64,000 nucleotides of DNA, taken from assembly GCA_905178155.1 (NCBI GenBank), contig CAJINV010000004.1, forward strand, positions 9,524,625 to 9,588,624. The letters are read 5' to 3'. The DNA is from Amoebophrya sp. A120 (lineage: Eukaryota > Protista > Dinoflagellata). A model generated the notes under the pieces. That model worked only from the letters and a program-made list of their open reading frames with translations. It was not told the origin of the DNA and ran no database searches. A program made the translations under genes and the position numbers. This document shows positions 7,578-59,234 of this stretch, one piece after another (within the stretch, counting starts at the first letter, position 1; each line of letters opens with the position of its first letter).

Positions 7578-10500
7578 ATGAAACGGAAGGTCGAGACAAC
7601 CACGTGGCAGGACGTTTGTGACTTAGTGAAGCCCACCCAGTACAAACTGTCGGCGAAGCAGGAGCAGCAGATCCCGGCGCTGATCAAACCGTTGAAGCGG
7701 TTTTGGCGGTACATCCCACCAAGAGATCTCTACCCGAAGTCCTTTCTTGGCGAGGTGGAAAAGCGACACGTGGCGAAGTCCATCGTCCGGGCGTTCTGTC
7801 ACCACGTGTCCCACAAGGGGGAGCCGAGAATACGGGAGAACGAGCTGAGCGAAACCCTAGAGCGGTTCAACGTGTACAAGCTCCGCCCGAACTACCACCC
7901 CGGGCTGGTGAAGGAGCTGTTCGACGAAATTATCCACCGCCGGCCGATCGAGCTGCAGAAATTCCGCGACATCTCCGATCAGGAGGTCTACGACGCGATC
8001 TGCGACAAACGCGAGTGGGCCCCGGTGATCAACATCGTATGCTTCCCGGAGAAATCCGATAAAATGCAGCAGCCCTACGAGTTGATCGGAAGGACAAGTG
8101 TGATCGATGAGTGGCTGCTGAAACTTTACGACGACTTCCAGTCGATCGGCTTTTTCGGCGGCAACACCGAGGTGCCGAACATCTTCGGACACAGTAGCAC
8201 GAAGGAAAACTACAAGGTCCCGGGCTATTACCGGGCTTTCGGCGAGGAGTTGGTGCGATTCATGAAACGGTCCCCGGATTTTAGGAGCGAGGTCTTGTCG
8301 TTTCTGCAAAAACCCGGAGCAACTACTGGTGGATCTTCTACTTCAATTAACAAGAATAACGAAGATGTCGTCGAACAGATGCACGAGATCAAGTTCCACA
8401 ACCCGCGGAAGCTGTGGGTGTTTTCCCGGCGACCAAACGCGGATATTTGGCTGGACATGATGAAGCTGCTGGATCACAACCCGGTGAACCAGGAGGCGCA
8501 CAAGCGGAACGACCACTTTTTCAACGGGCATTTACTGGACATCCAGGGGGAACCCGTGCCGAAGCAGAACCACGCGAAGATGGACAACAAGGAGGTGACA
8601 CGGTCAAAAGTGTTTCAGAACGAAAGGTCCGACGCGTGGATCCAGAACAAACCGGCCATGGGGTTGCTCGGCGGGACCTATTTGCAGACCATGACGGGGC
8701 AGCTGGCGACCCTACCGGGCGTCGGGTTGACCCGGGATGTGTACCGCGAACCGATCGACGAGAAGATTTCCGATTCGCTGAAAGTTGTGGTCGAACCGCA
8801 GAACAGTATCCAGATCAAGGAAGTGAAGATAAAGCCCCTCGCAACCGTCCACTCCCTGCGGCCGACGGAGCAGTACCCGGGCGTCAATGCGATTGAGGAG
8901 GGAAGGTTAGAGACCGGACCGGAGGAGAAGCCGAAACCTTTGTCGGAACTGGAGCAATTAAGTCACCAGAACGCAAACTACGTAAACGAGACGATCGGAG
9001 CATCATCTTCCTCGTCTTCTAGTGCTGGTGGTCCGCAACAACTGCAGCAGAGCCGATCCGCGCAGGGTGGTCTCCGCTTCACCCTTGACGGGAGCAAAAG
9101 GACCTTTCGCCGCGCGATGGCGAAAACAGAGAGGGTCAGCTTCAACCGCAACCAGCTGCAACAGGTCTTAGTCAACACAGCCGCTATGACGGGGCACTAC
9201 GACCAGACACTGTCCACTTGGAGGAATAGGAAAACCACGACGAGCGTCAGTCCGGAGAAGAGCAAAAGTAGCGTTGGTGCAAATATTAACGGCGCAACGC
9301 TCTACTACGCGGAGCCGCCTGGTGGTAGTTTTGAAGAGGATAGCGATGCAGCACTTAATATGTTGCAACAAGAACCAGCGGACCAACATCAAATTGAGCC
9401 AGCACTGTTAATACAACATCAGCCCGGTGGAACATCCCAGAACTCGAGTCCGAGTTGGAGAAGCAAGTCTTCTGGCATAAAATACCCGCCAACCGTCGTT
9501 GCGGGTTCGATAAAAGGGCCAGATAATGTCGATCCGGAAGTCCGCGACCAGCTCTACGGGCCGATTCTGAACACCAACGACTCGGTGTGCCAGCCCGAGG
9601 ACAAAATTCCGCTTACCAACACCGGGGATAGCATTCCCGTGATCGGGTCCGGGGGGGTCAGACTCCTGCGGCCCGCGAAGTTCAGTCTCGCGCAAACGTT
9701 GTCCGAAGCATACAAGGGGACGATTCTAACCTCAAAGTCCATATGGGATTCTCAAATGTTACATTCTCAACTGTTACATGATTTGCCATGCAAAATCACC
9801 ATGAGCCACCAGACGATAAAGCTACCTCGCATGACAAATCCCCGAAGGGCTAAACAGCATCTAAATCTGTGCCGCATTTGTGATGCGAGAGATGCAAGCT
9901 TGCCCATTTCACGACTGTTGCGGCTCTTGCATCACAAATTCATGCAACAGTTGAGAGTGTAACGTTTGAGAACTTCATAGTCCAAGGCGATAACGTATGG
10001 GAAATGCGCGATCGAGCACCCGCCGGCCGGGAGCGGGAACTATCAAACAAAAAAAGTTCGTCGCGATCACTCATGCGCATTTTTGCAACACAAAATTGTT
10101 TGTCATGCGTAAAAATGCATCACAGCCAAACTTCATTAGGGATTTCCCTAGTGTTTCTGCAATACAAGGAAAATTTTTGACGCTAAGAAAATTTGTAATG
10201 CAAAACCTGCAAGTTAGTGACTGTGACAAACTTTTTTCTCTCCATAGGAACAGCAGTAGCAGTAGTAGCTCCATGCTGCAGCGACACGCGTACTCGACCC
10301 TGAATCTGAACGCGGTGCAACCGACTGCGAAGCAGATGTGCGTTCACACGTGGTACAATAATTTACCATGTGCAGGGGACAGCACCGTCACGCAAATCGG
10401 CGCGATGCCACTACATCTGGCGTCGGGGATTGATGCGAAGACGAAGGTATTCTTGATTGGATTTTGTCATGTAAGTACTATGGGACAGCATGTGCATATA

Positions 10501-13583: not shown

Positions 13584-15107
13584 ATGAAGAATCCCAACCT
13601 GCAGCCCTTCCGGCAAGTGCCGCGAAACGCCGCGCCGGCCTCACGGGTAGTGAAAACCCCACCACAAAACTTCAACCCGGCGGATATTCGGGTGGCGGTG
13701 CGAAAAGAGGTTGCTAAGGTATCTAACGTACTAGCTGTAATCTTCCCTTCATCGAGGAGTATAGTAGTTGTACCGATAATACCAAGATTGTTGGGATTGG
13801 CAGTTCTAAGTGCAGCGAAATTTTCAATGCATTGGTGGAGCAGTTCTTGATATAAGAAAAATAAATGAAAAAAAACACTCATCTCCCAGCCCGGTTTCTC
13901 CACGCGCAAAGCGCCGAAGTTCAACCCGGAGAAGGTCTCGCCCGGCGCGTTTTTTGTTCCTCTTCAAGCTCCGGATGCAAACGAAATCAAGCCCGGGCCG
14001 CGGAACCCACCGAAGTCCAAGTCAGACCCAGAATACATCGACCCAGAAGACGTGCTCGCGGCGATCAATGCGGACGGCAGTTACGCAGGCCACGAGGCAG
14101 GACGCTTGCAGAGAGAAAAGGAAGAGGCGGAAATGGAGGCAAAGAAGAAATATGCCGTGAAGATAAACAAAAGTATCGCAGTCGCATATTAAAACATGCA
14201 CTGCAAATGTGATGTTTATACCTGAGTCTGCATTTACAAACTCCATTTTTGTTGCTGAAAATTTTGTGATGTAATTTTGCCACTTTTTTTTACTTAATTA
14301 TGCGATAGAATAGGATACTTTTGCCATGCATAGGAAGGAGGCCATGGCCAAACTGGGAAAAATGGCGGTGCCTATGCCGGACTGGCCGCTGCACCCGCAA
14401 ACGGGGGAGAAGTTGGACGGGTATCCGTTCGTCCGAAAGTGGCTGGAAGACGAAATTCGCTCGAAGGATAAGCCGTACTATCCGAAAACAAGGCCAAACG
14501 AACCGTTCACCTTTTTCAACACGCTGGGGAGGAGAAACGGTATACGTTGATTTGTTGCGAACTTAATAAACTTATTGTGATCCTACTAGGTAGGGTTTCG
14601 CTCGTCGTCTTTTTCGTGCAATAATGTTGCTGCAGCTGCGGGTACAGACTTGACATTCGCTACATACTTTTGGAGACTTGTCATGCCACACAAAATAAAG
14701 CTACCGACTCTTTATTTTGTGTTTGTCAGGTAAATACTGCATCAAGGGCGTTCCGGACGGTAATTTCCCCTACCAAAAGGAAACGCACAGATCCGTAACT
14801 TACGAGCACGAGTACATTGCGGGGCTGGCGCGACGGAACGACTACAATTTGATCACCAACTATCGCAAGAAAAAACTGTTTCACTGTGAACTTGTGATGC
14901 AGAAGATGGAACACAGACCTATTTGTATTGCTACACTTGCAAGACATTGCATTTTCGAGCGTCTTTTCCCTTGGGAAGAGCGCATGGCAAATTTTCTGTG
15001 TCATGAGTACGGAACTTGTGATGCAGATTTTGCAAAATCACCACTGTGAAACAGTTTTTCGGTGGGATACCAACGATGGGTTACCGCCGCTGGACCAGGA
15101 TTACTGA
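13584..15107 (+). CDS. Hypothetical protein (multi-exon; start uncertain)
   Basis: Exon segments MKNPNLQPF..., ...EAEMEAKKK|EAMAKLGKM..., ...DYNLITN|DGLPPLDQDY* join in frame across the two elements. Confidence 0.6.
14151..14332. mobile_element. Introner, degenerate family A-like
   Basis: TATGCC...CAAAAGTATCG / GATACTTTTGCCATGCATA; diverged DR AGAAA/GGAAG; frame restored by removing element + 5 bp. Confidence 0.7.
14861..15069. mobile_element. Introner / non-canonical intron
   Basis: TATCGCAAGAAAAAACTGTTTCAC...GTGAAACAGTTTTTCGGTGGGATA; DR CCAAC. Confidence 0.85.
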
Positions 15108-16298: not shown

Positions 16299-18844
16299 AT
16301 GGCCTGGAAACTGAACCGTCCGCGCATCCCCTCGGACGATAGCAACAATAATTTTGAGGTGGATGGCACCGCACTACATCATCAGTCACCAGAACAGCGA
16401 CACCAGAGCACGGGCAATCATCTACAACCAGTAACGCGACAGCCGTCTTATGAACTGCAAAAGTATCGTATTCGTAGTATTGCAACACAAATTACCCCAG
16501 CATGACAAACGGAATCATGCTGATTTAGCTTGAAAATGAAATTTGTCTTGCATGACTGTGATTACTACGAGTACGATACTTTTGCACCGGATACGTCTAT
16601 CGCCAGCACGATGTACGCGTCCGGCTCAGGCGGCAACCTATCCAGGAAAATAAAACACCCATCAACATCCAATTTGTCATGCAAAACACGTATGAAATCC
16701 CGTGTTTGTCATGCGAAAAAAGGATGGGAATGGGTTTTTTTACTTTTTCTGTGGATAAAACCCGCCGACGTCCTCCACCTCCCTCGGAGGTTCGTCCCCG
16801 GCCCCTTCCACGCCCGAGCAATCCTTCATCCCCGGCTTCGGCGAGATGAGCGCCCAGTTTCACTCCGCGCTCGCGGCAGAGCGGCAACGGATGCTGATGA
16901 AGGGCATCGGGCCGGGTGGGCCAACTACAACATCTTCCTCCAGCACGAGTCCCTACAGAGTAGGGGGTTCATCTTCGCGCGGTACTAGATACGCGGGCGC
17001 GTCACTGCACTGTAGGTACTGTGGGCTGCCGCACACGGGAGATTTTCCGGTGACTCTGAACGGGAATCCTGTCGTGATCGACCAGAATCTGGACCCCGTG
17101 GTCACCTGCTGCCCTAACGCGAGATGTACAGTACATCATGTACAACTTCAACTTCTATTGGATAAAAATAAATTAGTACGAAGCTCTGCTCGTGTTGATG
17201 AAGACGAAAACTCGGACGAGGCGTTTATTTTCATACTGTTGCTGCTACAGCTTTTGTTTCGCAAAGCGCAAGTTTCTTGCTGCATAAGCAGCACGCATTC
17301 CATACATATGATGGCAACATGAAAAAAAAAATGAAGGTAAGAAACCGCTACCCAAGTGCATGATTTGCCAGCTTCCACTATCCACAGTAAATTTCCTGTA
17401 CACGTACAAATGCAGTCCCTGCATGACAAAACTTGCCTTCAATCCTAGTGTAGCATGACAAGTTGGACACTGCAAGTTAGCGAAATTTGTCATGCATTTT
17501 GTACATGTACAGGAAATTTACATTGCATATCCACTTAAGTGCGCGGTGAAGAAGAACGAGAACCTGATTCCGCTGGGCGACTACACCGTGTTCTGCATGA
17601 CGTGTCACCACGGAGGACACCTGAAATGCGTGCAAGCCTGGAAGGAGCAGGAGCTGAAGCGAATAGCGCGGGAGGAATTGGACGACGTGTTTGGGCATTT
17701 GGTGGACTTGCCTCTGGCAGAATTGCAGGAAAGGGTAAGGGAGAAGGAGAGGCAGGAACAAAGTGATGCACAAGCTGCAGCAGCAGCAGCAGAAGCTGCA
17801 GCTGCGTCCTCGTCAGCTTCCGCACCTCCTCCTTCCGCATCTACTTCCCCAGAAGAGAACGCGAAGAACACCGAAGCAGGGAACAAGGACCCCGGAGATG
17901 ATGATGCAGATCATGATCCGATTTGTCGGCCCGCTGGCGGTATGCATTGCAAAAGTATCGTATGCATTGCAAATTTCCTCAACATGAGAAATAAAATTTG
18001 TAATGTGGATGTACGATAAGAAAAAGATTTGTAATGCTGCAAGACTTGCATTTATACGAGTACGATACTTCTGCAGTTCATAGGCGGTCCCGTTCGCTCC
18101 GCTTCGAAACAGCCACTACCCCGTATGAAAGTGCACAACTCCCCCTCCCCCTCGTTTGTTTTGCAAAATTCCAAATCCACGCTTTGCCTGTTAGCACTGT
18201 TTGCATGACAGATTCCGAAATCCAAAACAGCACTACAATCCTCTAGGAATTTGTCATGCTGAAGCTGCATCTTTGCCAGCGCTTGTGTTTCTGTTCATGC
18301 AAGAACACAACGGGGGGTGGGGGAGTTGTGCACTCTCATACCCCGTCCTCGAAAGATACCGTGCTGCCCAGTGCCAGGGTGTGACTGCACTTTTTGCTTT
18401 GCGCCGATAGACGAGGACTCCTCGTCCGATGAAGAAGAGGAGGCGGGGGCTGGTGGGGCGGCCGAACAAGTGATAAACGAAAACGAGGAAGTAAGAACCA
18501 CCCCAGCGCGACGGGATTTTTATAACCCAGATGCTGGTCTTCAAGTTCAAGGTCATCTGCTAGGCCTACCTCTGTCGATCGACGCCATTGGGGAAGATGA
18601 ACCATCGACGCACACAGGAGAAAGAAATCCTGTCGGCCGGGATGGAGGAGGTCCTCGTGTGGAAATGCAACTGCAAGTGCAAGATATGGATAGCCCTGTA
18701 CTATTTCCAGGAGGTTTTGGTGGGAGTCCTAGCAACAACGTCGGTCTTCGAGGAACTACAGATCCTCGGGCGGAGTTTACGCCACTCTCCCTAGACGACG
18801 AGGAGTCAGAGTTTGCTCTGAACATAGAGGACGAGTCGTATTGA
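16299..18844 (+). CDS. MIOS/Sea4 (GATOR2)-like zinc-ribbon/RING protein, interrupted by 5 introners
   Basis: Reconstructed CRYC...CCPNARC...KPLPKCMICQLPL...FCMTCHHGGHLKCVQAW...CCPVPGCDC resembles the MIOS C-terminus; acidic tail. Confidence 0.6.
16449..16593. mobile_element. Introner, family A
   Basis: TATGAACTGCAAAAGTATCGTATTCGTAGT...ACTACGAGTACGATACTTTTGCACCGGATA; DR CGTCT. Confidence 0.9.
16639..16757. mobile_element. Introner / non-canonical intron
   Basis: TATCCAGGAAAATAAAACACCCAT...ATGGGTTTTTTTACTTTTTCTGTGGATA; DR CAACC/AAACC; frame restored. Confidence 0.8.
17379..17529. mobile_element. Introner / non-canonical intron
   Basis: TATCCACAGTAAATTTCCTGTACACGTACAAA...TTTGTACATGTACAGGAAATTTACATTGCATA; DR TCCAC; splits CQLP|LKC. 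Confidence 0.9.
17941..18082. mobile_element. Introner, family A
   Basis: TATGCATTGCAAAAGTATCGTA...TACGATACTTCTGCAGTTCATA; DR GGCGG. Confidence 0.9.
18124..18340. mobile_element. Introner, family B
   Basis: TATGAAAGTGCACAACTCCCCC...GGGGGAGTTGTGCACTCTCATA; DR CCCCG. Confidence 0.9.
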
Positions 18845-21643: not shown

Positions 21644-21705
21644 CTGTTATTGTTGAGAAGTAGTTTCTTTCTCTATCATTTTTCCCACAGAAGAGCAACC
21701 ACAAA

Positions 21706-22683
21706 ATGTCACGAAAGCAAGCCGGCAAGGAAGTCTCCAAGGACGAAAAGTACTTGGCTACTCTGTTGCATCATTCCCATTTGTTAGTTCCACAGTTTTT
21801 AATCGGTTTTTGCCATGCTGATGACCTGCAGGAGATGGAGAGCAACAGCAAGTCAATGCAAGTTGTGCAAGACAAGAAAAAGAAACTATATACAAGAACT
21901 CCCTCAGATCATGAAGACTCATCATGGGAAATAACTTAACATCAAAAACCCATTGTCAACAGGTTGGTGACGCTCCTGGACCGCGTCGCTGGCAACCTTC
22001 TCGAGGAGCGGCCGGAGGCCGGTGAGGCCGCGTATGACTTGCTCAAACGTTACAATCTCAAACGTTGCAATAGAGTCTGGAACTTGTGTTGCATGATGAG
22101 CATGACAGACTCGCACAGCGTTCCACTTTTTGCCATACAAATTTCGCCAGATTGTAGTGGGGTTCGGGGCTCCGGAACTTGTCATGCGCAGTCCTATGAG
22201 AGTTGGCTAGATCATGCACTCTTGCATCACAGATTTCCATATTCTATTGTAACGTTTGAGACTGTAACACCTGAGCGGGTTATACCGCGTGGAAGAACGT
22301 TCTGGAGACCCTGTACGAACAACACCCACTGTACGCGGTATCAGAGTGCACAACTCCCCTTTCCCCTCATTTGTCATGCAAAACCCCAAAACCAAGTCTA
22401 ATCCAGGCTTAGCACATTTGCATGACAGATTCCGGAAGCTGCTCAAAGCCAAACAGTACTACACTAGGCGCATGAAAATTTGTCATGCACAGGCTCCACT
22501 TCGTGTGCTGGTGTTTGTATTGCTGTCCATGCAATTATAGTACAAATGAGGGGGAGGGTGTGTTGTGCACTCTGATACGCGGGGCAAATGGAGCGGAAGC
22601 GGCTCTTGCGTCACCGCGAAAAGCTCGAGAAAACGCTCGTGTCGGCGAGAAAAGCCCTCACCACCGTCGGGGCAGGACAGTGA
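21706..22683 (+). CDS. Small protein with possible RIIa/Dpy-30-like docking motif
   Basis: MSRKQAGKEVSKDEK|...LVTLLDRVAGNLLEERPEAGEAA|WKNVLETLYEQHPLYA|GQMERKRLL...AGQ*; two GT-AG introns and two introners. Confidence 0.65.
22033..22284. mobile_element. Introner, family C
   Basis: TATGACTTGCTCAAACGTTACAATCTCAAACGTT...AACGTTTGAGACTGTAACACCTGAGCGGGTTATA; DR CCGCG. Confidence 0.9.
22339..22577. mobile_element. Introner, family B
   Basis: TATCAGAGTGCACAAC...GTTGTGCACTCTGATA; DR CGCGG. Confidence 0.9.
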
Positions 22684-37395: not shown

Positions 37396-37532
37396 GACAA
37401 TGACATCAAGGACATCGACATGCTGTACTAGTTGCAGGAGAAAATAAGACGAGCTAGCACAGTTTGTTTTTTTTTCGCGCCGTCGAAGCTCTTCTTCATT
37501 CTGCGGGCCGTGTAGCGGAAACGAAAATAAAA

Positions 37533-41680: not shown

Positions 41681-44600
41681 ATGGTGCGGCGCTTCGTCTT
41701 CGGCGTGCTGACCGCGAGCATTTGCGGTCGAGTGGTCGACGCGAAGTGGCTTTTCGACTACCTCAGCGATGAGGAAGTGGGGAGCATTGCCAACAGTACA
41801 GACGATGTAAAGACAGATGCGGTGCACAGTGTTGACAATGAAGCTTTTTATTATGCAAGCTGCGCATGATCCATACGAAAACAAAAACAAAATCAAAATG
41901 CAAATACTATACCCCAGGTCTCCCGAACATCGACATCGCCTCCCAGCAGCCGGACGTCGATGCTGAGGTGGATGACTGGGCGCCCGGAAAATCAGTCGAC
42001 GATCCGCACCCTATCTTCCTCACACCCGACCTCAGCAGCATCGTCACCACCACAGCACCTGTACTACAACCCGCTGCGCAACAACCGGCCACCACCACCA
42101 CCGCCCCCTCGCTGGAGGAAGAGGAGAACTTAGGCCCCGCGGCCGCGAAAGCAAAGGCCCTCGAGCGGATGAAAAACAAGAGGGAAAAACCGCAGATTCA
42201 GTGTGACCTAGCGACCGAGGTGATCTTGTCTCTCGGGAACGCGCGCTTGACGGAGGCTGTGATGCGAGACAGCCTGGGCAGCGAAGATCCGTGCGTCCTG
42301 GAAACCATTCGCGCCGGGCGGGTGCAGCAAATATCGGTACCTAGGAGCCTGCGGTTCCAGGTTGGGATGCTGGGAAGCAACTCGACAGCTGAAGTCGGGA
42401 ACAGCAGCTCCGGATTGAGCCTGAATAGCAGCATCGCGTTAATGTTTCTGCAGGAGGTGGGAGGAGAAGATCAAGTTCAAGACGAGGATCACGACCAAGC
42501 GCAATCTGCATCTGCGTTTCCTTTCCAGGACCCGAATAAGGTGAAACCCTTGCAGCATAAGCCCGCCGAGACAAAACCCACGCCCGAAAAGCCTACTGCG
42601 AAAGGGCCGGAGAACCAGCCGGCGTTTGCCAGGACCATTCCCGTCGGGGGGCCCGCGGCTCGGTTCCGGACCAGACTGCCGTTTCAACAGGTGAGGGTGA
42701 TTTCGATTTGCTTTTGCGAGTAGGAAACTAAATCATGTTGTCGTTGTCCACTATTTGCGGTTGCCCGATAATAGACCTGTTTTCGTTTTCCTCCACGTAC
42801 TTATAATCTTCTACAACTATCACTAGTATGTCAAAGACCCAAACTTCTATCAGGTCCTGAACGCGTTCTGGCTAAATTCCAATCCTTTCGGCCAGACCAC
42901 GGACAGTGTGTGTGCCATCTACCCGTCCAGCCGCGAGCAGGTGAAAATAGCGAAGCAAACGACAGAGATGGTCCGCCAGGTTTTCGAAGAAGACGCCAGA
43001 ACGCCTTCGCAGCTGCGGTTTCTTCTGCCCGGTGGCGAGGAGAATAACGTGAACGCCATGCTGCCCGCGGAACGCGAGCAGGCGAAAAATGCGGCGTTGG
43101 AGGAGCAAATGGTGTCAGCACTGGCGAAATCGAAAATCAGTAGTACTAGCAAGATGACAAGCTCTAGTACAGCAACAGCAGGGATGAAAACAGCTACATC
43201 AACAAACAAATTCGATCCAGCGAAGCCGTACACGCAGCAGGATTTAAAAAAAGTCCTGCACAACGTCGCGGACAAGTCGGGTGACGCCTCGGTGAAGCTG
43301 ATACGCATTGCAAAAGTATCGCACTAGTATAAATTGCATTACAAATTGCGCCAAGAACAAAATTGGAATTTGTAATGCTGATTCAGGTTGGGAAAAATAT
43401 TCGTCATGCTTTAGTGCAATTTATACGAGTGCGATAGCTTTTGCACAGCATAGCTGAAAAACGGGAACAAAAACGCGATATCCACGAAGGAGGGTATGAA
43501 GGAGTACGATAAGGAGCGAAAGGAGAAAGCTTTCTACGAGGCGGGGCTGACCCCCACCGGGGCATCGACAGTTTCGCCCCCTAGTACTTCCGCGACGGAT
43601 GTTGGGATAAAAGTTGGAGGCGCAGCTGCAGCTTCTGATCCACTTCTGGATTATTTCAACACGCCGGGGGGAGGATCAAGATCAACTTCATCTTCTGGTT
43701 ATCCTGTGCAAAAGTATCGTACTCGTTGTAGTAATCGCAGTTATGCATTAGAAATCTAGTTGGTTAGGTAAATCCGCATTACAAATTTAATTTGTAATGC
43801 TGAGCCAATTTGTATTGCGATTTGTCCTAGTGCGAAACTTTTGCAGTGCATACTGGTACGATCCCTAGATCCGCTCCTCCTCTCGGCTACAATCTAATGA
43901 CGGCCTCGGTGCAGGACGGTTTCAGCTACGACCCCCCGATATGCATTGCAAAAGTATCGCACTAGTATAACTAGCATCACAAATTCACTCAGCATTAGAA
44001 ATGGAATTTGTAATGTGGATTCCACCAAAGAAAGGGATTTGTAATGCACGACAGCGATTAGTACGAGTACGATACTTTTGCACAGGATACCTGACTTTGG
44101 TTTTCACCGAAGCACCTCTGCAAGAGCAAGACTTCCGCGGGCAAAGTATGGGACAACTCTCAAGCGTTACATTCTCGACTGTTACATGAATTTGCCACGT
44201 AAAATTGGCAGCTTCGCAGGACAAGTTCTCGACGCGCTAGATAGCACTTTAATCTACTCCAAATTCATGTAACAGTTGAGAATGTAACACTTGAGAACTC
44301 CATACAAACGGCGACGGACTACACGAAATCGATGCAAATGGTGCGGTTGGTGCATTCGCGGGGAAAGATCACGACAAGTCTGTGGAACGAGGAGAACATC
44401 CGGAAATTTCTATCAGAAGGAAAAATCCCCCCTCCCTATATCGAAAACGATGCTTGTGATGCTGTATTGGAGTACACAAATCAGATTTGTCTTGCAGTAG
44501 AGGACTGCAGGACCATGCCACGCCATGCCAATGTAGAGAGGTCTTGGCCTAGGCACTTAGCATGAGGAACGGCTATGCTGTAGGCCCAACAGCATTACAA

Positions 44601-47375
44601 ACCATCTGCGTAATGGGTCGGAGCCTATGCCGTTGCTTTCTTGCAAGACAGACGCGATTTGTGGTCACAAATCCGCATCGCAAATTCCCTGAGGCGTACC
44701 TTTTCAATATGGGGATGGGAGATTTTTCCTTCCGATAATTTCAGAATTTGCTGACCGGCACGACGAAGATCGCCCCGCCGATCCCGGTGGGCACCGCAAC
44801 GAAAAATTACATGGGTGTGGACGACGACGATGTAGCAGTTCATGCTGCGGAAAATAAAGACAAGGTCCCAGCATCAAAACCGAAAACAAGCTTGAACCCG
44901 ATCAGCTTGCTGTCCATGGCTATCAAATGTAAAAATGTCTGGGTCTGGAAGATTCCAAGATTTGTCATGCAGTTTGTCCAAGCTCCACCAAGTCTGGAAC
45001 GCAGGGCCTAGCATCACAGGTTCTGCAGCCCCTTGGTGATGCCCATTGTGCATGAGAAATGCCCTCTCAGCATGGCGAGAAATGGGGACCTTTTGCAAGC
45101 CATGCAACACAGATTTTTGTATGATCCGCAACACGCATCACAAGTTCGCACTCTTCCAGACCCAGACATTTTTGCATTTGATAATCGCGCTGCAACATCA
45201 AAAGTCGGGGCGGACCCCCGGGAGAAGAAGTACAGCTACATCTAGCAGAACGAATATCAAAGCGTCTTCTTTCATCTCAACAGCCACCACGTCGTTCGCC
45301 GTTGCACCACGAGCAGGAACAACATCAAAGCGGACGGCTGCAGAGAGCAGCGTAGCAACATCATTCCTGCAGATAGGTGAAGATGTGGTCGACGATCACA
45401 AAATGATGATGAACATGCTGGATAGGAACAGTGAGAAGAACGACCTCGCTGTGCTGCACCAGGAAAGGCACCATGATGGTCACGCTCACCACCACACCCA
45501 CAAGCATCTGCACGATGGTCAACACCGGAACGAAAAACAAAAAGAGCACCATCACCACCACCACCATCAGAGCCATCATCACCACAAGGATCCCTTGGGT
45601 CTGGTCGAGGCTGCAACTTCAGCCTCGTCTAGAATTACTCCGGCTCCTGTGGAGGAACAGCGAAAAGAAAGGCATGCGAACTACAAGCACAAAAGCTCCT
45701 TCGGGAAGGAGAAGACAAATCTTCGTCATCTCTTCGAGAGCGAGACGAGTACCAACCGGCTGAAGACGCACCACGGTACTTCTAATAAGAACGTCAGCTT
45801 GAAAATGATGAAAACGAAGAGTCCGGCAGGACGACAGTCACACGACCGAAATAGTTTTCAGTACTTGCAACTCTTCTCCGACAAAAGACCTTCCCCGGCA
45901 GGCGGCGTGGGGGCATCTCGTGGGGGCCAAAACGATGCAAATTTTGCCATCGGCAAACTTCGGCAGCCATCGTCCTCGATAATATCCGCGTGGTATCGGC
46001 ACGCGCACGGGAAAGGGGATGGAGCGGATGGTGAAGCGGGCCCGGAAAAATCGCGAGAGCAACTACAGCAGCTAGAGTTGCAAACTGCACCCCCTTCCTC
46101 ACAACAACATGGGCCGCGGCTCACATCTTCAACTACAGAATTGCTGGAGCGGGGGACGACGAGTGCAGCTCAGGCAGCGAAACTTCATAGGGAGCGAAAG
46201 ATGATGCAGACGGAGAAAAACGACAATGTGCAGCTGCAGAAGAACGAGCAAACTCATCTGCAAATACCGGCAACCACCGCCGGAAAAGAAGCCGAGCACG
46301 TGGCTCAGGCCGCGGGGGTGGTAGCTGCGGCGCAACACAAAACTGCACAAACAGCCGAAACCGACGAGGCCACAGCCGGTGGATCATCCGGAAGTACTAG
46401 TAGTGTCGTTAACCAAAGATCTCCCGAGGGGGCCGCGATCTCTGCCGCGACGTCTAGTGCGTATGCGTCTTCCGGTGCAGGATCGACTGCTGGAGGGAAA
46501 ACGGAGAAACAGGACCCCTCCGTTTTCGATGACTCAGAAGTTGCTGCAGCGATCAAAGAAGCGCAAGTCGGAGGTCAAGCGACTACTACAGCAGGGCCTG
46601 TTTCTGCGGACGGAGTTGCCAGAGCGAAGAACAAGGAGGAGGACTTGCGGGGAAAGCATGAGAGGCAAACCTGGGGTAATAAAACGTTCAGCATATAATT
46701 GCATGTTTGAGATTGTCGTGATGTTGCGAGAAGTCCTGCGAGCCTGAGATGTGCTGCAGTTGATTTTTTGGGAAAAATGCACGTGCTACTAGTAGTACGC
46801 TCCTTCTTCTAGAGTTGTCTAAATGAGCAATCACACAAAAAAACACACCTCAGCGTCCGAGTGGGTCCCTCTCATCGCCGGTATCGCGGTGCTCGTCGAG
46901 ATTGTCGCGCTGCTCTGCTTATGAACTGCAAAAGTATCGGACTCGTATAAATGCATTGCGAATTTTCTTAGCATGAGAAATAGAATTTGTAATGCTGATT
47001 TGCCTTGACAAAGGAATTTGTAATGCAAGACCTGCATTTATACGAGTGCGATACTTTTGCGCAGGATACTGCTGCGAAACGAATTTAGACACCTACGACC
47101 GCTCCCACTACTACCACAACTACTACTCCGACACTGATCGGTCTTCGCAAATCTCCACGCACTTAGCCGCGTCCTCCGCGAGAGGACGGTCTTCTTGCGC
47201 CAGCGGAACCGGGACCTCGCAGGATGAGGGGCCGGCGACGAGTATTTCCGCAACCCGGCAAGAGTGGACCACCAGGGTGCTGCTGCAGCATCAACTACAG
47301 GGAGGAACTACGCGGGAGAGCAATTTTCACAATCTGTACGAAGAGACCCGGAAAGCGAGCAGTAAATCGAAGTGA
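41681..47375 (+). CDS. Large secreted/membrane protein: signal peptide, His-rich tract, C-terminal TM (7 introners)
   Basis: MVRRFVFGVLTASICGRVVDA; HHHHHHHQSHHHH tract ~45470-45590; WVPLIAGIAVLVEIVALLC|C. Single-gene interpretation is inferred. Confidence 0.65.
43302..43452. mobile_element. Introner, family A
   Basis: TACGCATTGCAAAAGTATCGCAC...GTGCGATAGCTTTTGCACAGCATA; DR GCTGA. Confidence 0.88.
43700..43852. mobile_element. Introner, family A (reverse orientation)
   Basis: TATCCTGTGCAAAAG...CTTTTGCAGTGCATA; DR CTGGT. Confidence 0.9.
43940..44089. mobile_element. Introner, family A
   Basis: TATGCATTGCAAAAGTATCG...CGATACTTTTGCACAGGATA; DR CCCGA/CCTGA. Confidence 0.88.
44147..44304. mobile_element. 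Introner, family C
   Basis: TATGGGACAACTCTCAAGCGTTACATTCTC...GAGAATGTAACACTTGAGAACTCCATA; DR CAAAG/CAAAC. Confidence 0.85.
44411..44737. mobile_element. Introner, family F
   Basis: TATCAGAAGGAAAAATCCCC...GGGAGATTTTTCCTTCCGATA; DR ATTTC; homologous to 38900-39221. Confidence 0.9.
44921..45183. mobile_element. Introner, family E
   Basis: TATCAAATGTAAAAATGTCTGGGTCTGGAAGA...TCTTCCAGACCCAGACATTTTTGCATTTGATA; DR ATGGC/ATCGC. Confidence 0.88.
46920..47068. mobile_element. Introner, family A
   Basis: TATGAACTGCAAAAGTATCG...CGATACTTTTGCGCAGGATA; DR CTGCT. Confidence 0.9.
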
Positions 47376-48142: not shown

Positions 48143-49203
48143 ATGAGCGCTTCCTATGAACTGCAAAAGTATCGTACTCGTATAAATGCATTGCAAATTT
48201 TCTCAGCATGAGGATTAAAATTTCTAATGCGGATTCACCGTAGGAAAAAAATTTGTCATGCATATTTGCAATTAAGTACTACGAGCGCAATACTTTTACA
48301 CAGGATACTTCCGCTCCTCCACCAATGTCAGCAGCGGGGACCGCCGCGGCAGCGAGGGCGGGATCCGCGTCTTTGGTCGAATCAGCGGTGGGGACTGCAA
48401 AGACCGTCCTGGATCGCTCAGTCACGGAAGTGAGAAATTTCGTGGAGCAGAATCCGAGCCAGATTCGAGCGACGGTATTGCATAGGTGGGTGAGGAAAAC
48501 CTTGTGTTTTTCGCGATAAGTTACAAAATCATTAGCTTCGGCGGGCGGAGATAGAGACACAGACGCTAAGCAGAAGCAAAAAAACTGACCAACCAATATA
48601 TAAAACAGGTTTTCCTGATGGGCCTGGCCCAGGCGGTATATTGCGGCCTTGGCATCGTGAACATTTTCGCGCTCTCTTTTACCCCTGTGGAATACATGGT
48701 AAACCTGTATCTTTGCCTCTTCGCTGTCGTCACACTGATTCTGGAGGGGAAGCCGGAGTGGCCGGGCGTTTCCGGGGTGCAAGAGAAAATTTTCTTCCAA
48801 GCGCACTTTTTGTCCACGGTGCACGGCAGGGCGGGCTTCTACATGTTCCAAGGCACGTTTGGGATGGCCAGGTGAGAGATTTAGATTGAAGAAGCTTCTA
48901 GTGCCGGAAAGAGATGTGAGTACTTTTTAGGTTTGCTGTTTATTCATGTCGTTCTGCTCGGCCGGGGTTCTACTCCTCGGGTTGTAAATTTAGAAGATCT
49001 GATTTTCATCCAAAAATTCCAGATACGACTCCGATTTCCTGATGTTCGTCTTCGGTTTAGGCTTCTTCGCAATCGGCGCCCTAGTGCTCGCGCAGCAATA
49101 CAGAAACCGGGGGCAGACCGCAAATCTCCCAAGCGAAAACTTGCTGAGGGATTACCACGGGCAGGGCGGAAACCTGCCGCCTCCGACGGTGAACGCTGTG
49201 TGA
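48143..49203 (+). CDS. COPI-associated (Tvp15-like) membrane protein
   Basis: Hydrophobic helices; NLYLCLFAVVTLILE and FLSTVHGRAGFYMFQG resemble the COPI_assoc family. One introner and two GT-AG introns. Confidence 0.7.
48155..48307. mobile_element. Introner, family A
   Basis: TATGAACTGCAAAAGTAT...ATACTTTTACACAGGATA; DR CTTCC; 12 bp after the ATG. Confidence 0.9.
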
Positions 49204-53344: not shown

Positions 53345-54648
53345 ATGGTCCGCTTTCTGTTTCTTGTCGCGATGCCTGAGGAGGGCAAACACCTCGAGAA
53401 GGTGTTTGACTTGACAAAGGACGACGATACTGCGGCTGGCAATCCCTTCATCGATCTGTACTCCAACACGAAGTTTTGTTGTAGCGGGAGTAAAAACGAC
53501 GAGGAGGATAAGAAAACCACAAAACGACAAATTTTCATGGTTGTTCCGAAGCGGGACAAGGTCCACAACTGCCCCTCGATCTCCTCTGAGTCCGCCGCCG
53601 TCTGCGCGTTCTCAGCACTGAACCTCCTGGTTCCCATTTTCGGCGCGTTTGACTTGGTGGTGTCTGCGGGGACTTGTGGCGGGATACAGCAGCCGTTGGA
53701 CGTTTTCTTGGACGAGGAACAAGGTACAAGCACAACAACAGCGACGACGACGACAACAACGGCGATGCAGCAGGGGGACGTGTTTGTCGCGAAACAGATC
53801 CGGTATTTGAACCGCTTTATTCCCTTTGACGAATACAAGCAGTATCTGCATGGCAGCGGGTACAAATTGGTGGATCCGAAAAGGGTCAAAACCGCTATCC
53901 TCGCTGATAAGAGGAACAAAGACACACTTCGTGTTTTCGAGGGGAACGTCGCGACATCCAACACGTTTGTCACGGACGATTCCATTCCGCTGCAAGAAAA
54001 AGCTCACGTCTGCGAAATGGAAGCGGCGGCACAGGCGAGGATCTGCTGTTTGATGAACGACGTTCCGTTCACCGCGGTGAAAATCGTTTCTGACGTGGAT
54101 TTGAGCAGTGCAAAGCAGAAGCAGTATCGCACCCGCACAAGTTGGAGTCACGCTTGTTGACAGATCTGCTTTTTTTATTTGCATCGGCATGACAAAAAAA
54201 TTTTTAATTGTGATGCAGTAATTCCTACTGGTGCGGTGCTTTAGCTTTTGCAATGCATAAGAGTCCGTCGAAGGGATGACGAAGGAGGAACGGGTATCCT
54301 CAGTGAAAACGTCCTCGCCCCAGAGTTCTCGAGAAGCACTCTCTGGTGCAGTTTCGGGATTTGTCATGATGCTCGAATCAGGATCAGGTGGTCGATTTGT
54401 GATGCGGTTGCACTAGCTACACAGGACTACACTTCTACGAGCCCGAACTTGTCATGCGCGGCACCCAAAACTTGTGGACCTGTGTAGCAGATTCTGGTTG
54501 GTTCTGCTTCGACGTGACTCGGGGGTGGGGAAATTTTCGCTTAGGATAATGGGGGCATGCGTTTTTGGCTTTTTTGGACCACGGAGTGGAAAATCTGGGG
54601 AACGCGTGCAGGGGGCTCGTGGAAAACTGGAATGGTATTGTGGAGTGA
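53345..54648 (+). CDS. 5'-methylthioadenosine/S-adenosylhomocysteine nucleosidase (PNP_UDP_1 family)
   Basis: LVAMPEEG, DLVVSAGTCGGI, GDVFV, ATSNTFV, CEMEAAA, VKIVSD. C-terminus EERGHAFLAFLDHG...GIVE* recovered after removing elements. Confidence 0.85.
54100..54259. mobile_element. Decayed introner (left end eroded; start approximate)
   Basis: Right end CTTTTGCAATGCATA; internal GCATGACAA and TTGTGATGC; no clear left TAT or DR. Confidence 0.55.
54295..54548. mobile_element. Introner, family G
   Basis: TATCCTCAGTGAAAACGTCCTCGCCCC...GGGGTGGGGAAATTTTCGCTTAGGATA; DR ACGGG/ATGGG. Confidence 0.85.
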
Positions 54649-55489: not shown

Positions 55490-56182
55490 ATGACGTCCCT
55501 ACTTAAGGTTTTCGCCGTTCTCTCCTCTCTGCACTTTGTTGTGCAGCACTTCTGCGACGTGATGACTTCTTCTGGTGTGCTCATGCACGTGCAGGGACTG
55601 CAGCTGTCCGGGACGGGGAAAAAAGGAAAGCGGTCCGCTTCTGCCGGCCCGACCGTCGGACGTCGACTACCCCCGCTGCTGGTGGGAAACGGAAATGCAG
55701 GACGGCAAAATCAGCTCGCAGCTGCACCTGCTCGCTCTACTTCACCTACTGCTAACCCTGCTGCTGTTGCTAGGAGTGCTATCTCCGATTCCGCTGGTGC
55801 CGCTTCGTCTGGTGCCGCTTCGTCTGGTGCTAGTACAGGTGAACGTGAAGGTGAAGCCCCAGAAACATGTATTATTTGTCTGCAACCGGAGAGGGGCGAC
55901 GAAGACGGACAGTTAAAACCGATGTGCACATCTCCATCTGGGGCGCCGCACCTTGTGCATAAGAAGTGTGGAAAAGAGTGGGGCGCTAGAGCAAGTACTT
56001 GTCCCATGTGCCGCGGGCCGTTGCAGGAGGAAATGCGGGATCCTCGTCGTCCACCATCCGCAATCCCAATCGATTCTACTACTACTACTAGTCCACGGCC
56101 GCGGGAAGACGAACGGACGATGATGGGGATGGAAGATCGAGATTTGCATAGGTTTTTTCTTCGTATTGAAAGTCAAAATTAG
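55490..56182 (+). CDS. Signal-peptide protein with RING-type zinc finger
   Basis: MTSLLKVFAVLSSLHF...; CIIC...C...HLVHKKC..W....TCPMCR. Confidence 0.75.
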   Translation: MTSLLKVFAVLSSLHFVVQHFCDVMTSSGVLMHVQGLQLSGTGKKGKRSASAGPTVGRRLPPLLVGNGNAGRQNQLAAAPARSTSPTANPAAVARSAISDSAGAASSGAASSGASTGEREGEAPETCIICLQPERGDEDGQLKPMCTSPSGAPHLVHKKCGKEWGARASTCPMCRGPLQEEMRDPRRPPSAIPIDSTTTTSPRPREDERTMMGMEDRDLHRFFLRIESQN

Positions 56183-57262
56183 ATTCGTGAAAGTCGCCTT
56201 TAGAGATGACATTTACAACGCTTTCGCTGTCGTACTCGATCTTCTCGCCGCTCATTTTGAAATCTTCACCTGCTTGTCAATTGCAGGATTGTATGATTAT
56301 TGTCTGAGCTATTTCTCCAAGAGGACCACGAGCACGACCACGCTGGGACAGGAGGAAGTTTTGATTACCCAAACGCAGAGTCAAATTTATTTTTTAGCCC
56401 TATCATCCAAGGCCATGCATTGGGATATCTCGTGTACCTGTACAATGAAGTCGTGTATTTTTTTTCTCAAACGGACGGCCATGCAGGTGCTTATCGCCAT
56501 GTAAAAGCTACTTCTTATCGCCATGTAAAAATCCCGTCAGGGTCAGCGCTACAACACTAGTAAAAAGTCATGAAACTATCAGGACTGATTTTTGGTCACA
56601 GGCAAAATATTCGACCAGTAGGCTCCTGCGCCGTCTTTTCCTCATGAAAGCGGTGGGAGATGCGGGTGAGGTTAGTATTGATGGGTCGAGTAGGTAGTGA
56701 AGACAAAAAACGGCTTTTGTGAAGATTGCGCCCTTCCCGGGGATGAAGCAAGTGAGCTGCTTGCGCTATGATGGGAGTCAATTAAACACAACATATCGCG
56801 TCATGTATTATTTGATTGTGGATGTGCGATCCTCATCCTTTTGTCGTATGAAAAACAAAAAGTATTGGTATTCATGTGCCGTTCTTGCACCGTGACCTAG
56901 ATCAAGTTCGAAATCCAGATCCTCTACTAGCATAAAGAAAATGCAACCGCTAGAGAAAGCCAGTAGCCCCAGAAGATTTTTCGATCCAGATACGATGCAA
57001 GGTTGGGTCTTGCAACATGTGAACAAAAACGCTTTTTTCCAGCAAATTCTTTGCATCTAGTAAAGCATGAACATCCGTCTACAAACAGTCACAGTCTACA
57101 TCTACAACTTCAACTCGCCCGCATAATTGCTCTATTTGAACACTTTTTTCGAGGATCGTAAACAGTACTACGCATACTACATCCAAAAACGACACTGTAA
57201 CTGCAAGCAACTTTTCTACAACAATTTTACTGGTCCAGTTATCTTTGTTCCTCGATCTTGAC

Positions 57263-59234
57263 CATGACGTCCCTCTCCCTACGTAAGGTTTTCGCCGTTC
57301 TGTCCTCTCTGCACTTTGTTGCGCAGCACTTCTGCATGATGACTTCTACTGGTGTGCTCACGCACGTGCACGGGCTGCAGCTGGCCGGCAAAAAGCATCG
57401 GTCCCGTTCCGCCGGCCCTACCGTCGGAGCGCGTGAACTACCGCTGCTGGCGGGAACAAACGGAAATGCAGGAACGACCGCTGCTGCTGCTGCTGCAAGT
57501 AGTGCAGCTTCTAGCTCCGCTGCGGTTCCACCTGCCACCGCGACTCGTCGCCTTGCTCGAGAGGTTTCTATTGCTACTGCCCAGGCTGCTACCGGTTCTC
57601 CCCGTGGTCCTGCTGCTTCTACTGGTCCAGCGCCTCGTCCTGCTGAACGTCATGTTGATCTCGGTGCAGCTGATGCTGCTCGTCCAGCTGATGCTCCACC
57701 TCGTCCGCGAGTTCCTGTCCCCGGCCCGCCTCGTCCCCACCGCCTGCCCGTCGTAGGCCTAATGGCCCATTGTGTAGGCGGCTGCTGCTGTTTCGACACA
57801 ACGGCACTAGTGGGTGCAAACAGGGACACCATCGACCGGCGCTTTTTGGCGGCCGAGGAGGCAGGAAAGGACTGTCGTGTTGGAGCGGCCTGCTGTGTTG
57901 GTTTTGGCTATGCATTGCAAATAGTATGTCTGGGTCGGGAAGACGGGTGCGGTGCAACACTGTGACGCAGCACACGACAGAAAACTGTCTTGCATGATCA
58001 CCAAAAGCAGCCGTCCACTTTTGGACAAGTTGAGAAGAAGTCTGTCACGCAGGATAGCGATTTAATATGTAGGCATGATGGTGATCACGAACATCATAGA
58101 ATTAAAAACCCCACAGAATTCCGATTCATGCTAGGTCCTGCACGCCAGACCATATGGGGCGGGGGCCGGGGGGGCAGTGAAAACCTGCATGACAAACCTA
58201 GCAATCTTCCAGACCCAAACATGTTTGCTCCTGATATAGGCGCTTCGGTGGCCGCCGGTGCCGGCATTGGGTACCTTTGTGCTCCTAGTGCGACTGGCTG
58301 TGTGACAGGGGGAGGAATGGCAGCAATACTTCCTGGAGGTGTTTTCGGAGGTACGGGGGCGGCGTTGCTCCAAAGCGGGTGCAGCGAGTGGGGTACGGCG
58401 AATTCGCGGTTCGAGGAACCAACTCCACAGCAAGTTATCAAATGCACAAATGTCCGGGTCTGGAAGGTTGGAACTTGTGATGCTAACTTTGGACTCTAAA
58501 AAAATCTGTATTGCATGACCAGCAAGAGGAGGCTTGTTTGTGCTACGCGGGGCGGGCGTTTGTCATGCGGAGTAGGCATCAGGATTCAGGAAGCCCTCTA
58601 AAAATCTGCGATGCTAGGTCGTGCATTACAGACATCCTGGGTCATGCAAAACATGCATGACAAACAAGACCCACGCGTGGGGACAGGGTCCCCACGCTGG
58701 GGCCTTGTGCCCGCCCCTAGTGGCGCTAGTGGGGGAAGGGTGTTCGCCATCGGGGCGGACAGCGTCCGCCCCTCGCCTCACACCAGGCGCGCGCATAGTG
58801 ACTTAGTGCGCGAAACGCTAGTGGGGGAGGGGTGTTCGCCATCGGGGCGGACAGCGTCCGCCCCTCGCCTCACACCAGGCGCGCGCATAGTGACTTAGTG
58901 CGCGAAACGCTAGTGGGGGAAGGGCCCTCACCTGTCGCGGCCACCTGTCGCGCCCACCTGTGATGGCCACCTGTCGCGGTCACCTGTCGCGGTCACCTGT
59001 CGCGGTCACCTGTCGCGGTCACCTGTCGAGGTCACCTGTCGAGGTCACCTGTCGAGGTCACCTGTCGCGGTCACCTGTCAAGGTCACCTGTCGCCGGGGG
59101 TATGCGTTACCAGAACCCGGAAGTCAAGCAATGTAAATATTAATCTCAGAATCTTCCAGACCCAGACATATTTGCATTTGATACAAGTACTTATGGCGCT
59201 AGGTGGGCACGAAGGGCTCTTCCCGGATTATTGA
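57263..59234 (+). CDS. Signal-peptide paralogue with Cys/Gly-rich hydrophobic C-terminus (2 introners)
   Basis: N-terminus homologous to the 55490 gene. Reconstructed ...ACCVGFG|ASVAAGAGIGYLC...EPTPQQV|LMALGGHEGLFPDY*. Confidence 0.7.
57909..58236. mobile_element. Introner, family E-like with family A-like tip
   Basis: TATGCATTGCAAATAGTATGTCTGGGTCGGGAAG...CTTCCAGACCCAAACATGTTTGCTCCTGATA; DR TTGGC/TAGGC. Confidence 0.85.
58436..59183. mobile_element. Introner, family E, carrying a ~480-bp internal insertion
   Basis: TATCAAATGCACAAATGTCCGGGTCTGGAAG...CTTCCAGACCCAGACATATTTGCATTTGATA; DR CAAGT. Confidence 0.88.
58724..59094. repeat. 92-bp tandem repeat (~2.2 copies) followed by a 13-bp minisatellite (CACCTGTCGCGGT, ~13 copies)
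   Basis: Units start at 58724, 58816 and 58908; minisatellite ~58929-59094. Confidence 0.9.

What the first reader, a model, noticed from the sequence alone, without database searches (positions are those of the whole stretch)
9742..58665. Shared internal motif GCATNACAA / TTGTNATGC across otherwise dissimilar introner families
Seen: GCATGACAA, GCATTACAA, GCATCACAA and their reverse complements recur, often several times per element, in families A (27484), B (22371, 22480), C (9828, 9930), E (45136), F (39075, 39159) and G (26279, 26361). By eye they are much rarer in exons and intergenic DNA. Inference: a binding site for a common trans-factor (transposase or excision protein), retained while the TIRs diverged and present on both strands, consistent with orientation independence.
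Basis: partly seen in the sequence, partly recalled or inferred. Interest (0 to 1): 0.78.

Follow-up and report, generated by a model that had tools for sequence, protein, structure and literature searches.

The report
Spaced docking motif inside mobile introns
Dozens of dissimilar transposon-like introns in this likely Amoebophrya (marine parasite) genome carry the same short, conserved DNA motif at set distances from their ends, likely the docking site of one shared, still unidentified protein that copies them to new places.

Summary
The motif is real. GCATNACAA occurs 75 times against 2.5 expected. Seventy copies lie in 37 TAT…ATA elements (8.1 kb), none in 20 kb of exon. The elements match the published Amoebophrya A120 introners: 5-bp target duplication, an empty orthologous site, and exact removal from RNA contigs (12 of 12 element joints shown). 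In 392 elements from a related genome, all 14 families carry it. The site is polar (GCA-W-B-ACAA). It is almost absent within 35 nt of an end, peaks at 37-39 and 45-49 nt, and often repeats at 31-33 nt. Outward-pointing sites are phased near 10.5 nt. Its core changes about three times more slowly than the interior, while its free base does not. Elements whose sites all point one way insert in both orientations. Best reading: a double-stranded-DNA site for one shared mobilising protein (about 55%). No transposase was found. A host role in intron marking is the main rival (about 22%): the motif persists in some GT-AG introns without inverted ends, and a transcript-strand bias appeared in the related genome but not in the small window sample. 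I found the motif undescribed in the papers searched.

The parts
9742..9979 (.).
10041..10246 (.). Element, single family; sites 48+, 65-, 80+, 122+, 158-
14151..14332 (.). Decayed family-A-like element, left end set by eye; two weak sites
14861..15069 (.). Element; sites 37-, 68-, 125+, 161-
16449..16593 (.). Family A element; sites 37+, 55+, 100-
16639..16757 (.). Short element; both sites same direction (41-, 73-), 32 apart
17379..17529 (.). A-related element; sites 46+, 78+, 114-
17941..18082 (.). Family A element; sites 27+, 45+, 63-, 94-
18124..18340 (.). Family B element; sites 38-, 83+, 133-
22033..22284 (.). C-related element; five sites
22339..22577 (.). Family B element; sites 38-, 85+, 147-, 182-
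26201..26479 (.). Family G element; five sites, all + (51, 82, 164, 212, 243)
27091..27385 (.). Element; eight sites, outermost 48 and 47 nt from the ends
27447..27590 (.). Family A element; TSD TACGA; sites 42+, 73+, 91-, 108-
27993..28256 (.).
28291..28443 (.). Family A element; mismatched TSD; removed with +5 nt
31264..31525 (.). Family E element; sites 45-, 76-, 130-, 169-, 216+
31673..31824 (.). Family A element
31987..32131 (.). Family A element; mismatched TSD; removed with +5 nt
32176..32458 (.). Element starting TAC; sites 47-, 78-, 182+, 247+; removed with +5 nt
32925..33075 (.). Family A element
33308..33556 (.). Family E element
33605..33754 (.). Family A element
38678..38826 (.). 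Family A element; removed with +5 nt
38900..39221 (.). Family F element; sites 49-, 82-, 148+, 180+, 263+; removed with +5 nt
43302..43452 (.). Family A element starting TAC; removed with +5 nt
43700..43852 (.). Family A element; removed with +5 nt
43940..44089 (.). Family A element; mismatched TSD; removed with +5 nt
44147..44304 (.). Short C-family element with no strict motif (two weak sites, scores 10 and 12); still removed exactly
44411..44737 (.). Family F element; removed with +5 nt
44921..45183 (.). Family E element; mismatched TSD; removed with +5 nt
46920..47068 (.). Family A element
48155..48307 (.). Family A element
54100..54259 (.). Decayed A-like element lacking the left TAT (left end set by eye); shared with ortholog L075
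54295..54548 (.). Family G element; all sites -; shared with L075; one site disrupted in the window copy
57909..58236 (.). Family E element
58436..59183 (.). Family E element with a nested insert of about 470 bp
5616..5624 (+). Strict motif in GT-AG intron 5573-5701
14678..14686 (-). Strict motif in GT-AG intron 14540-14729
26675..26683 (-). Strict motif in GT-AG intron 26567-26711
54057..54061 (.). Empty target site (AACGA, approximate coordinates); the ortholog L075 has a family A element here between two copies of it

Best explanation
The motif is a conserved, polar site of about 11-13 bp (GCA-W-B-ACAA), placed at set distances from both TAT ends of non-autonomous transposon-like introns, and it is likely read on double-stranded DNA by one shared protein (a transposase or its partner) that would hold the two ends together for transposition. 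Shown: insertion with a 5-bp duplication; both insertion orientations; exact removal of element plus 5 nt from RNA contigs; conservation, polarity and spacing of the site. Inferred: the site is bound on DNA; several protomers line up on one helix face (first site 37-39 or 45-49 nt in, direct repeats about 31.8 nt apart, roughly three turns); these internal sites carry much of the specificity, which lets TIR positions 4-10 and 14-30 drift between families. Splicing would depend mainly on the ends. If one register holds for all elements, the cut falls 1-2 nt before TAT, so that N|TAT would stand in for GT-AT. A weaker host-level use of the site after insertion is possible.
For: Enrichment and presence in every family: 35 of 37 window elements; 375 of 377 members of 14 families in a related genome, scored with a matrix trained only on the window. 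Conservation in 8 of 8 families: terminal branches 3.78% core against 9.98% interior, internal branches 1.15% against 4.95%, N base 8.67% and 5.24%; 200 decoy sets 11.4%, minimum 9.5%. Polarity: GCA-W-BACA is 32-fold over shuffles, while the symmetric versions and other spacers are not enriched. Geometry: 6 of 1,379 sites lie within 35 nt of an end; outward sites have R=0.46 at 10.5 nt, p=0.0006 under family-shift shuffles; 8 of 11 window families have a same-direction pair 31-33 apart against 1.27 expected. Orientation: the family whose six sites all point one way lies 15 times with and 18 times against the inferred transcript; the motif reads 374 times one way and 404 the other. A single-stranded RNA reader or +/- pairing cannot easily explain that. 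Element 44147 has no strict site and is removed exactly. Older insertions (one TSD mismatch) gain about the same extra divergence in core and interior (+1.0 and +1.0 points). Precedent: the Herves transposase binds a short repeated subterminal motif, and the same is cited for Ac, Tol2 and Tag1 (PMC3143072, passages).
Against: No autonomous element or transposase was found: long TAT…ATA candidates were nested inserts or chance pairs, and Farhat et al. report none in A120 (PMC7789003 section 16). The period is loosely fixed: for all sites the best fit is 11-11.5 nt, and inward sites are not significantly phased (p=0.105). Five of 14 families mostly lack the 30-33 pair. Core changes depend on transcript strand in the related genome (4.31% against 2.93%, permutation p=0.0014-0.007), which transposition alone does not predict; the window did not repeat this (13/327 against 11/294). 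Strong sites persist in predicted GT-AG introns without TIRs (13 against 2.1 expected). About 90% of copies are in coding context (396 of 439), so selection for splicing could also conserve a motif.
Confidence: 0.55

Rival explanations
1. A host protein binds the site (on DNA during transcription, or on nascent RNA) and marks the intron, setting splice points at a fixed distance. Elements keep the site because only well-spliced copies survive in exons.
For: Transcript-strand bias confined to the core (A>G 3.73% against T>C 1.85%; none in interior or TIR 16-30). Sites in 10 of 90 predicted GT-AG introns with no element homology, with element-like spacings (46, 46, 33). L013:2225-2328 keeps three sites at 42, 60 and 74 with no TIR. 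Elements are nearly all exonic. U1 snRNA was not found in these genomes (PMC7789003). If the neutral post-insertion rate is about 5% (third codon positions of TSDs mismatch at 10.5%), the core is constrained after insertion.
Against: Element 44147 is spliced exactly with two weak sites only. Most GT-AG introns have no site (80 of 90). Core divergence is the same near the 5' and 3' intron ends (3.70% against 3.52%), whereas the terminal TA is asymmetric (1/676 against 10/676). The strand bias was not seen in 24 window copies. First and second codon positions give a post-insertion rate of at most 3.3%, compatible with neutral decay.
Confidence: 0.22
2. A host chromatin or architectural factor binds the site and is co-opted, either to bend the ends or to keep the element accessible. 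The transposase itself reads only TAT-N7-AAA.
For: The same DNA geometry; residual sites in introns; one motif shared across diverged TIRs; the terminal word does not score as the motif in most families.
Against: A host factor's site should also occur in promoters or intergenic DNA. It is nearly absent there (2 in 30 kb; 0.17/kb outside elements).
Confidence: 0.12
3. The opposite-strand copies exist to base-pair in the pre-mRNA hairpin that brings the splice ends together.
For: Elements fold far better than shuffles (z -3.1 to -11.2); 58-91% of core positions are predicted paired, often with an opposite copy.
Against: The N positions of opposite copies do not covary (19 pairs tested, none clearly above permutation). 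Family G has no opposite copies. Pairing would not need one fixed sequence across families. The wobble-type bias is as strong at unpaired core positions and absent from the TIR stem.
Confidence: 0.07
4. The motif is a neutral relic of one ancestral element, spread by internal duplication.
For: Shared ends and TSD imply common ancestry; some families link at Z>=4 after motif deletion.
Against: The core is about three times more conserved than the neighbouring interior and its own N base. Sites at the same distance from the end point inward in some families and outward in others.
Confidence: 0.04

Closest known systems
Introner elements (IEs) of Amoebophrya sp. A120 (Farhat et al. 2021, PMC7789003; passages, section 16, supplement text search)
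   Same: Non-canonical introns of about 150-330 nt with terminal inverted repeats starting TAT, seven loose bases, then AAA; short direct repeats; many copies.
   Different: The paper describes no internal motif in what I read. It splits the elements into 1,954 families, gives direct repeats of 3-5 nt, and argues against general transposase mobilisation. Here the duplication is 5 bp and one internal site with fixed spacing is shared by all families.
Subterminal transposase-binding repeats of hAT elements (Herves; Ac, Tol2, Tag1 as cited in PMC3143072; passages)
   Same: A short motif and its variants repeated near both ends, inside the TIRs.
   Different: Those sites are element-specific and binding is shown. 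Here one motif spans families with different TIRs, is strictly spaced, sits in spliced introns, and no protein is known.
IS3EU/GingerRoot DNA transposons (PMC10045372, PMC12730594, PMC6839031; passages)
   Same: TA..TA termini (TAY..RTA in fungal IS3EU; TAT and TAC occur here); no sequence-specific target.
   Different: Their TSD is usually 6 bp; here it is 5 bp. 'Subterminal' does not occur in the GingerRoot paper. No transposase was found to compare.
A120 introner families of Gozashti et al. 2025 (PMC12130899; passages, 11 of 58 A120 rows of one dataset)
   Same: Most rows seen are classed as TIR DNA of unknown superfamily; one family has TIRs with Copia/Gypsy-like ORFs.
   Different: They attribute A120 introners to several transposon classes. 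The shared site argues that the TAT…ATA families use one machinery. 'Subterminal' and 'binding site' do not occur in the main text.
Mu, Tn7 and Tn5053 multi-site ends (recalled, not from a call)
   Same: 5-bp duplication and several spaced transposase sites per end.
   Different: TG..CA termini, sites of about 20 bp, prokaryotic.

Membership tests
Amoebophrya A120-type introner (IE) | TIR beginning TAT, 7 variable nt, AAA | tested here: met
   terminal logos; description
Amoebophrya A120-type introner (IE) | Short direct repeat at the exon/intron boundary | tested here: met
   5 bp in 240 of 355 candidate end pairs, 4 bp in 2, 8 bp in 1
Amoebophrya A120-type introner (IE) | Removed from RNA with non-canonical ends | tested here: met
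   12 of 12 element joints shown equal element+5 nt; one sample, RNA status guessed, but GT-AG introns are skipped too; ORF kept in 31 of 31
Amoebophrya A120-type introner (IE) | Host is Amoebophrya | tested here: met
   closest relative of a window protein (65% identity) is named Amoebophrya sp. A120; next hits 24-35%. Lineage only.
Non-autonomous TIR DNA transposon (MITE) | Empty orthologous site with one copy of the duplication | tested here: met
   window against L075
Non-autonomous TIR DNA transposon (MITE) | Insertion in both orientations, many copies | tested here: met
   very high summed depth over elements in a DNA-like run (not a copy number)
Non-autonomous TIR DNA transposon (MITE) | Autonomous partner with the same ends and a transposase | tested here: inconclusive
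   none in 64 kb plus 618 kb, a small part of a genome
Subterminal transposase-binding array | Short motif repeated near both ends and conserved among copies | tested here: met
Subterminal transposase-binding array | Bound by the transposase and needed for transposition | not testable with these tools
   needs pull-down, EMSA or a transposition assay
IS3EU/GingerRoot | TA..TA termini | tested here: met
   definition
IS3EU/GingerRoot | TSD usually 6 bp | tested here: not met
   5 bp; no 6-bp case among 355 pairs
IS3EU/GingerRoot | Integrase-like DDE transposase | not testable with these tools
   no autonomous copy in hand
hAT5 | 5-bp TSD | tested here: met
   hAT5 definition in PMC12730594
hAT5 | hAT transposase and hAT-type termini | not tested
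   no transposase found; termini not compared
Known structured RNA or self-splicing intron (Rfam) | Match to an Rfam model | tested here: not met
   0 matches at gathering score in the window

The most novel reading that the evidence does not exclude
A sequence-specific protein bound to phased sites on the DNA marks these introns and tells a U1-less spliceosome, during transcription and in either orientation, to cut at a fixed offset from the TAT and ATA ends. The same protein may also mobilise them. Intron boundaries would then be defined on DNA, and dead elements would become GT-AG introns that keep the site.
Probability: 0.17. Interest if true: 0.92.

Novelty: new variant of a known kind. 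Interest (0 to 1): 0.66.

Why it matters
How tens of thousands of Amoebophrya non-canonical introns move and are spliced is stated as open: no transposase is annotated in A120 and U1 was not found (PMC7789003). One conserved, polar, spaced site in every TAT…ATA family unites families that were described as unrelated. It argues for one DNA-level machinery and gives a ready bait for catching the missing protein. It also gives a filter for finding autonomous copies and ancient introner-derived GT-AG introns. The cut register (1-2 nt before TAT) would help fix gene models.

Tried and rejected
No whole genome was held for the window or for locus L014, so replication used 134 loci from one metagenome-collection scan. 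These were picked by a family A end, which biases them towards family A. Eight overlapping loci were dropped, leaving 126.

A naive gene parser read through introns; introns were then curated by hand. One acceptor was corrected later from RNA contigs (42853 instead of 42826); one search used the earlier value.

The idea that the site is a palindrome for a homodimer came from the symmetric matrix. It was rejected because symmetric forms are not enriched. The idea that the TIR holds a degenerate copy of the site was rejected for most families. The G-U wobble reading of the strand bias was rejected.

The Copia-like integrase at 60203-61603 was not supported as a partner. The nearby TAT word scores 2.4, below the 5th percentile of real ends (7.1), and 6 of 403 such words outside elements lie at a similar distance from a site. 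No matching far end was found, and there was no tblastn hit in the fetched loci.

Virus scans were not useful. The 109 hits to the paired motif showed no element architecture. A family A end gave 0 hits. A family E end gave 7 hits that were not followed.

The coding versus non-coding comparison was uninformative (18 non-coding copies, younger). Families 5 and 6, and most of family 7, dropped out and later copy-level tests, which rest on five families. No RNA holder was listed on record. The raw-read run laid (X8) matched only parts of elements. Scripts 39 and 42 crashed after printing the figures cited. A resemblance to the Oct-Sox composite and C/EBP-ATF sites is recalled, untested and treated as coincidence.
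Full report
OBSERVATION. GCATNACAA has 75 matches on both strands against a shuffle mean of 2.51, largest 7 in 100. The ten cited coordinates are right within 1 nt. I called elements without the motif, as TAT…ATA with a 20-nt imperfect inverted repeat and a flanking direct repeat: 24 strict calls against 0-1 in 10 shuffles. Looser calls and three set by eye (14151, 54100, 57909) gave 37. Seventy matches lie in these 8,092 bp, 3 in 25 curated GT-AG introns, 0 in 20,080 bp of exon and 2 in 30,205 bp of other DNA. In a leave-one-family-out test each of 11 groups exceeded all 20 of its shuffles (that matrix counts overlapping strands twice).

WHAT THE ELEMENTS ARE. Removing element plus 5 nt, but not plus 0, 3 or 4, keeps the frame for 31 of 31 elements in nine curated genes. 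Contigs of four runs (one sample; RNA status guessed) skip exactly element plus 5 nt at 12 of 12 element joints among the 15 of 23 joints shown; the other three are GT-AG introns. Contigs of run X5 keep element ends joined to their flanks. An ortholog about 89-91% identical (L075) has a family A element between two AACGA copies where the window has one. The closest relative of a window protein is named Amoebophrya sp. A120. The ends match the published A120 pattern of TAT, seven loose bases and AAA (PMC7789003). So these are A120-type introners, already known as a class. Five joints have unequal duplication copies. If one register holds, the cut lies after base 3 or 4 of the left copy, 1-2 nt before TAT (my deduction). 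This fits GTAT being the commonest canonical donor (10 of 25; 50 of 106 predicted). It also fits the 5' TA being nearly fixed (1 of 676 changes against 10 of 676 at the 3' end).

REPLICATION. A scan with a family A end returned 134 loci; the 80 rows listed share one assembly prefix. In 126 non-overlapping loci (618,221 bp) the same rule gave 392 distinct elements against 5 in shuffled loci, in 14 families plus 15 singletons. With the matrix trained on the window, 375 of 377 family members and 13 of 15 singletons have a strong site. Strict matches run at 8.48/kb inside and 0.17/kb outside after masking. These families are largely the window's own, so this replicates copies more than families.

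ANATOMY OF THE SITE. The consensus is (T/C/A)GCA-W-B-ACA(A/G)(A/G)T. N is A in 10 of 816. The site is polar: GCA-W-BACA is 32-fold enriched, while the two symmetric forms and spacers of 0 or 2 are not. Of 1,379 strong sites, 6 lie within 35 nt of an end, 195 at 36-40 and 301 at 45-50. Sites whose ACAA points to the near end are phased (R=0.46 at 10.5 nt, p=0.0006). Inward sites are not significantly phased (p=0.105), and for all sites the best period is nearer 11 (window R=0.32 at 10.4, p=0.017, best 11.25-11.5). Same-direction pairs 31-33 nt apart occur in 8 of 11 window groups against 1.27 expected and in about half or more of the members of 9 of 14 families; the mean is 31.8 nt. The same distance from the end is held inward in some families and outward in others. 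After motif deletion, interiors of different groups do not link at Z>=6; some link at Z>=4. Two TAT-ended elements with 8-bp duplications lack strong sites near their ends.

SELECTION. On trees of eight families the core changes at 3.78% on terminal and 1.15% on internal branches, against 9.98% and 4.95% for the interior; the N base behaves like the interior. Decoy columns give 11.4% against 3.58%. Neutral descent is therefore rejected.

DNA OR RNA. Elements lie both ways in transcripts, with strand inferred from a codon model for 367 of 447 copies. This includes the family whose six sites all point one way (15 and 18). The elements fold strongly, but N bases of opposite copies do not covary. 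A polar site used on either strand, with near-helical spacing, is most simply read on double-stranded DNA. The known parallel is the subterminal transposase sites of hAT elements (PMC3143072).

TRANSPOSITION OR SPLICING. Three results favour transposition. Element 44147 is removed exactly with only two weak sites. Copies with a mismatched duplication gain equal extra divergence in core and interior (small numbers). Core divergence does not differ between intron ends. Three results count against a pure transposition role or leave it open. In 364 related-genome copies the core changes more when the RNA reads GCAU-N-ACAA (4.31%) than the reverse (2.93%; p=0.0014 with five neighbours, 0.003 and 0.007 with three and eight); this is not general mutation bias or wobble pairing, but 24 window copies did not show it (13/327 against 11/294). 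Predicted GT-AG introns without element homology hold 13 strong sites against 2.1 expected, in 10 of 90 introns, on both strands (the predictor was tuned on the window), and others are half elements. The duplication clock brackets neutral post-insertion change at about 3-5%, which cannot separate neutral decay from modest constraint. I put transposition first (0.55) and host intron marking second (0.22).

PARTNER AND FAMILY. No autonomous element was found. TA..TA ends recall IS3EU/GingerRoot, but their duplication is usually 6 bp. hAT5 has 5 bp. I do not file the elements under either.

PRIOR ART. Searches found no description of the motif. I read passages and section 16 of PMC7789003 and text-searched its supplement (no GCAT or ACAA; its figures, including S25, were not visible and may bear on novelty). 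I read passages of PMC12130899 and one of 33 parts of one dataset (two files not searched), and passages of PMC11282704, PMC10045372, PMC12730594, PMC6839031 and PMC3143072. Roy et al. 2023 (Current Biology) was seen only as a citation. Earlier scan notes on this genome were empty; four notes from other genomes were not used as support.

VERDICT. The motif is real, conserved and geometrically ordered inside a known class of introner. It is a new variant of a known kind and makes the missing protein directly testable. Interest 0.66.

Noticed in passing
window 91-1460: 1,370-bp element with long TIRs starting TATG and an 8-bp duplication; no strong motif, no Pfam match for two ORFs. A similar 8-bp-TSD element is nested in an introner at L004:2204-2726. 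This looks like a second, possibly hAT-like class.
   Followed up: partly
window 60203-63461 (-): Copia-like protease/integrase ORF (rve, SH3, Pol_BBD; closest relative named Amoebophrya sp. A120, 65%) with an unnamed 467-aa ORF upstream and no reverse transcriptase in view. About 47 bp of its 3' end recur near 63935.
   Followed up: partly
window 36330-36860: Intergenic repeat with 15 copies of CTTCTGAAG/CTTCAGAAG, all the copies in the window; raised depth in run X5.
   Followed up: no
window elements; L001-L134: Strong exonic bias: 31 of 31 elements in the curated genes are in exons, and 396 of 439 related-genome copies are in coding context.
   Followed up: partly
L001-L134 TSDs: The two duplication copies differ at 10.5% of third codon positions but only 3.2-3.5% of first and second positions, as if both copies were exposed to protein selection (variable cut register?).
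   Followed up: no
L001:1570-1837, L007:418-592, L059:3290-3451, L013:2225-2328: Predicted GT-AG introns that are half or decayed elements (G+TAT start or ATA near the end): a route from introner to canonical intron.
   Followed up: partly
window 58670-59135: Nested insert in element 58436 with a 13-bp tandem array; introners at L006:505-1608 and L022:6184-6998 also carry nested inserts.
   Followed up: no
window 54100-54259: Element that lost its left TAT in both genomes; the downstream frame suggests a different splice register, with no RNA data there.
   Followed up: no
window 1700-3700 and 55000-59900: Tandem duplications of gene-sized segments.
   Followed up: no
run X8 on window 31270-31346 and 32184-32234: RNA reads of another sample carry related element ends with different flanks, in the hundreds at single loci.
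   Followed up: no
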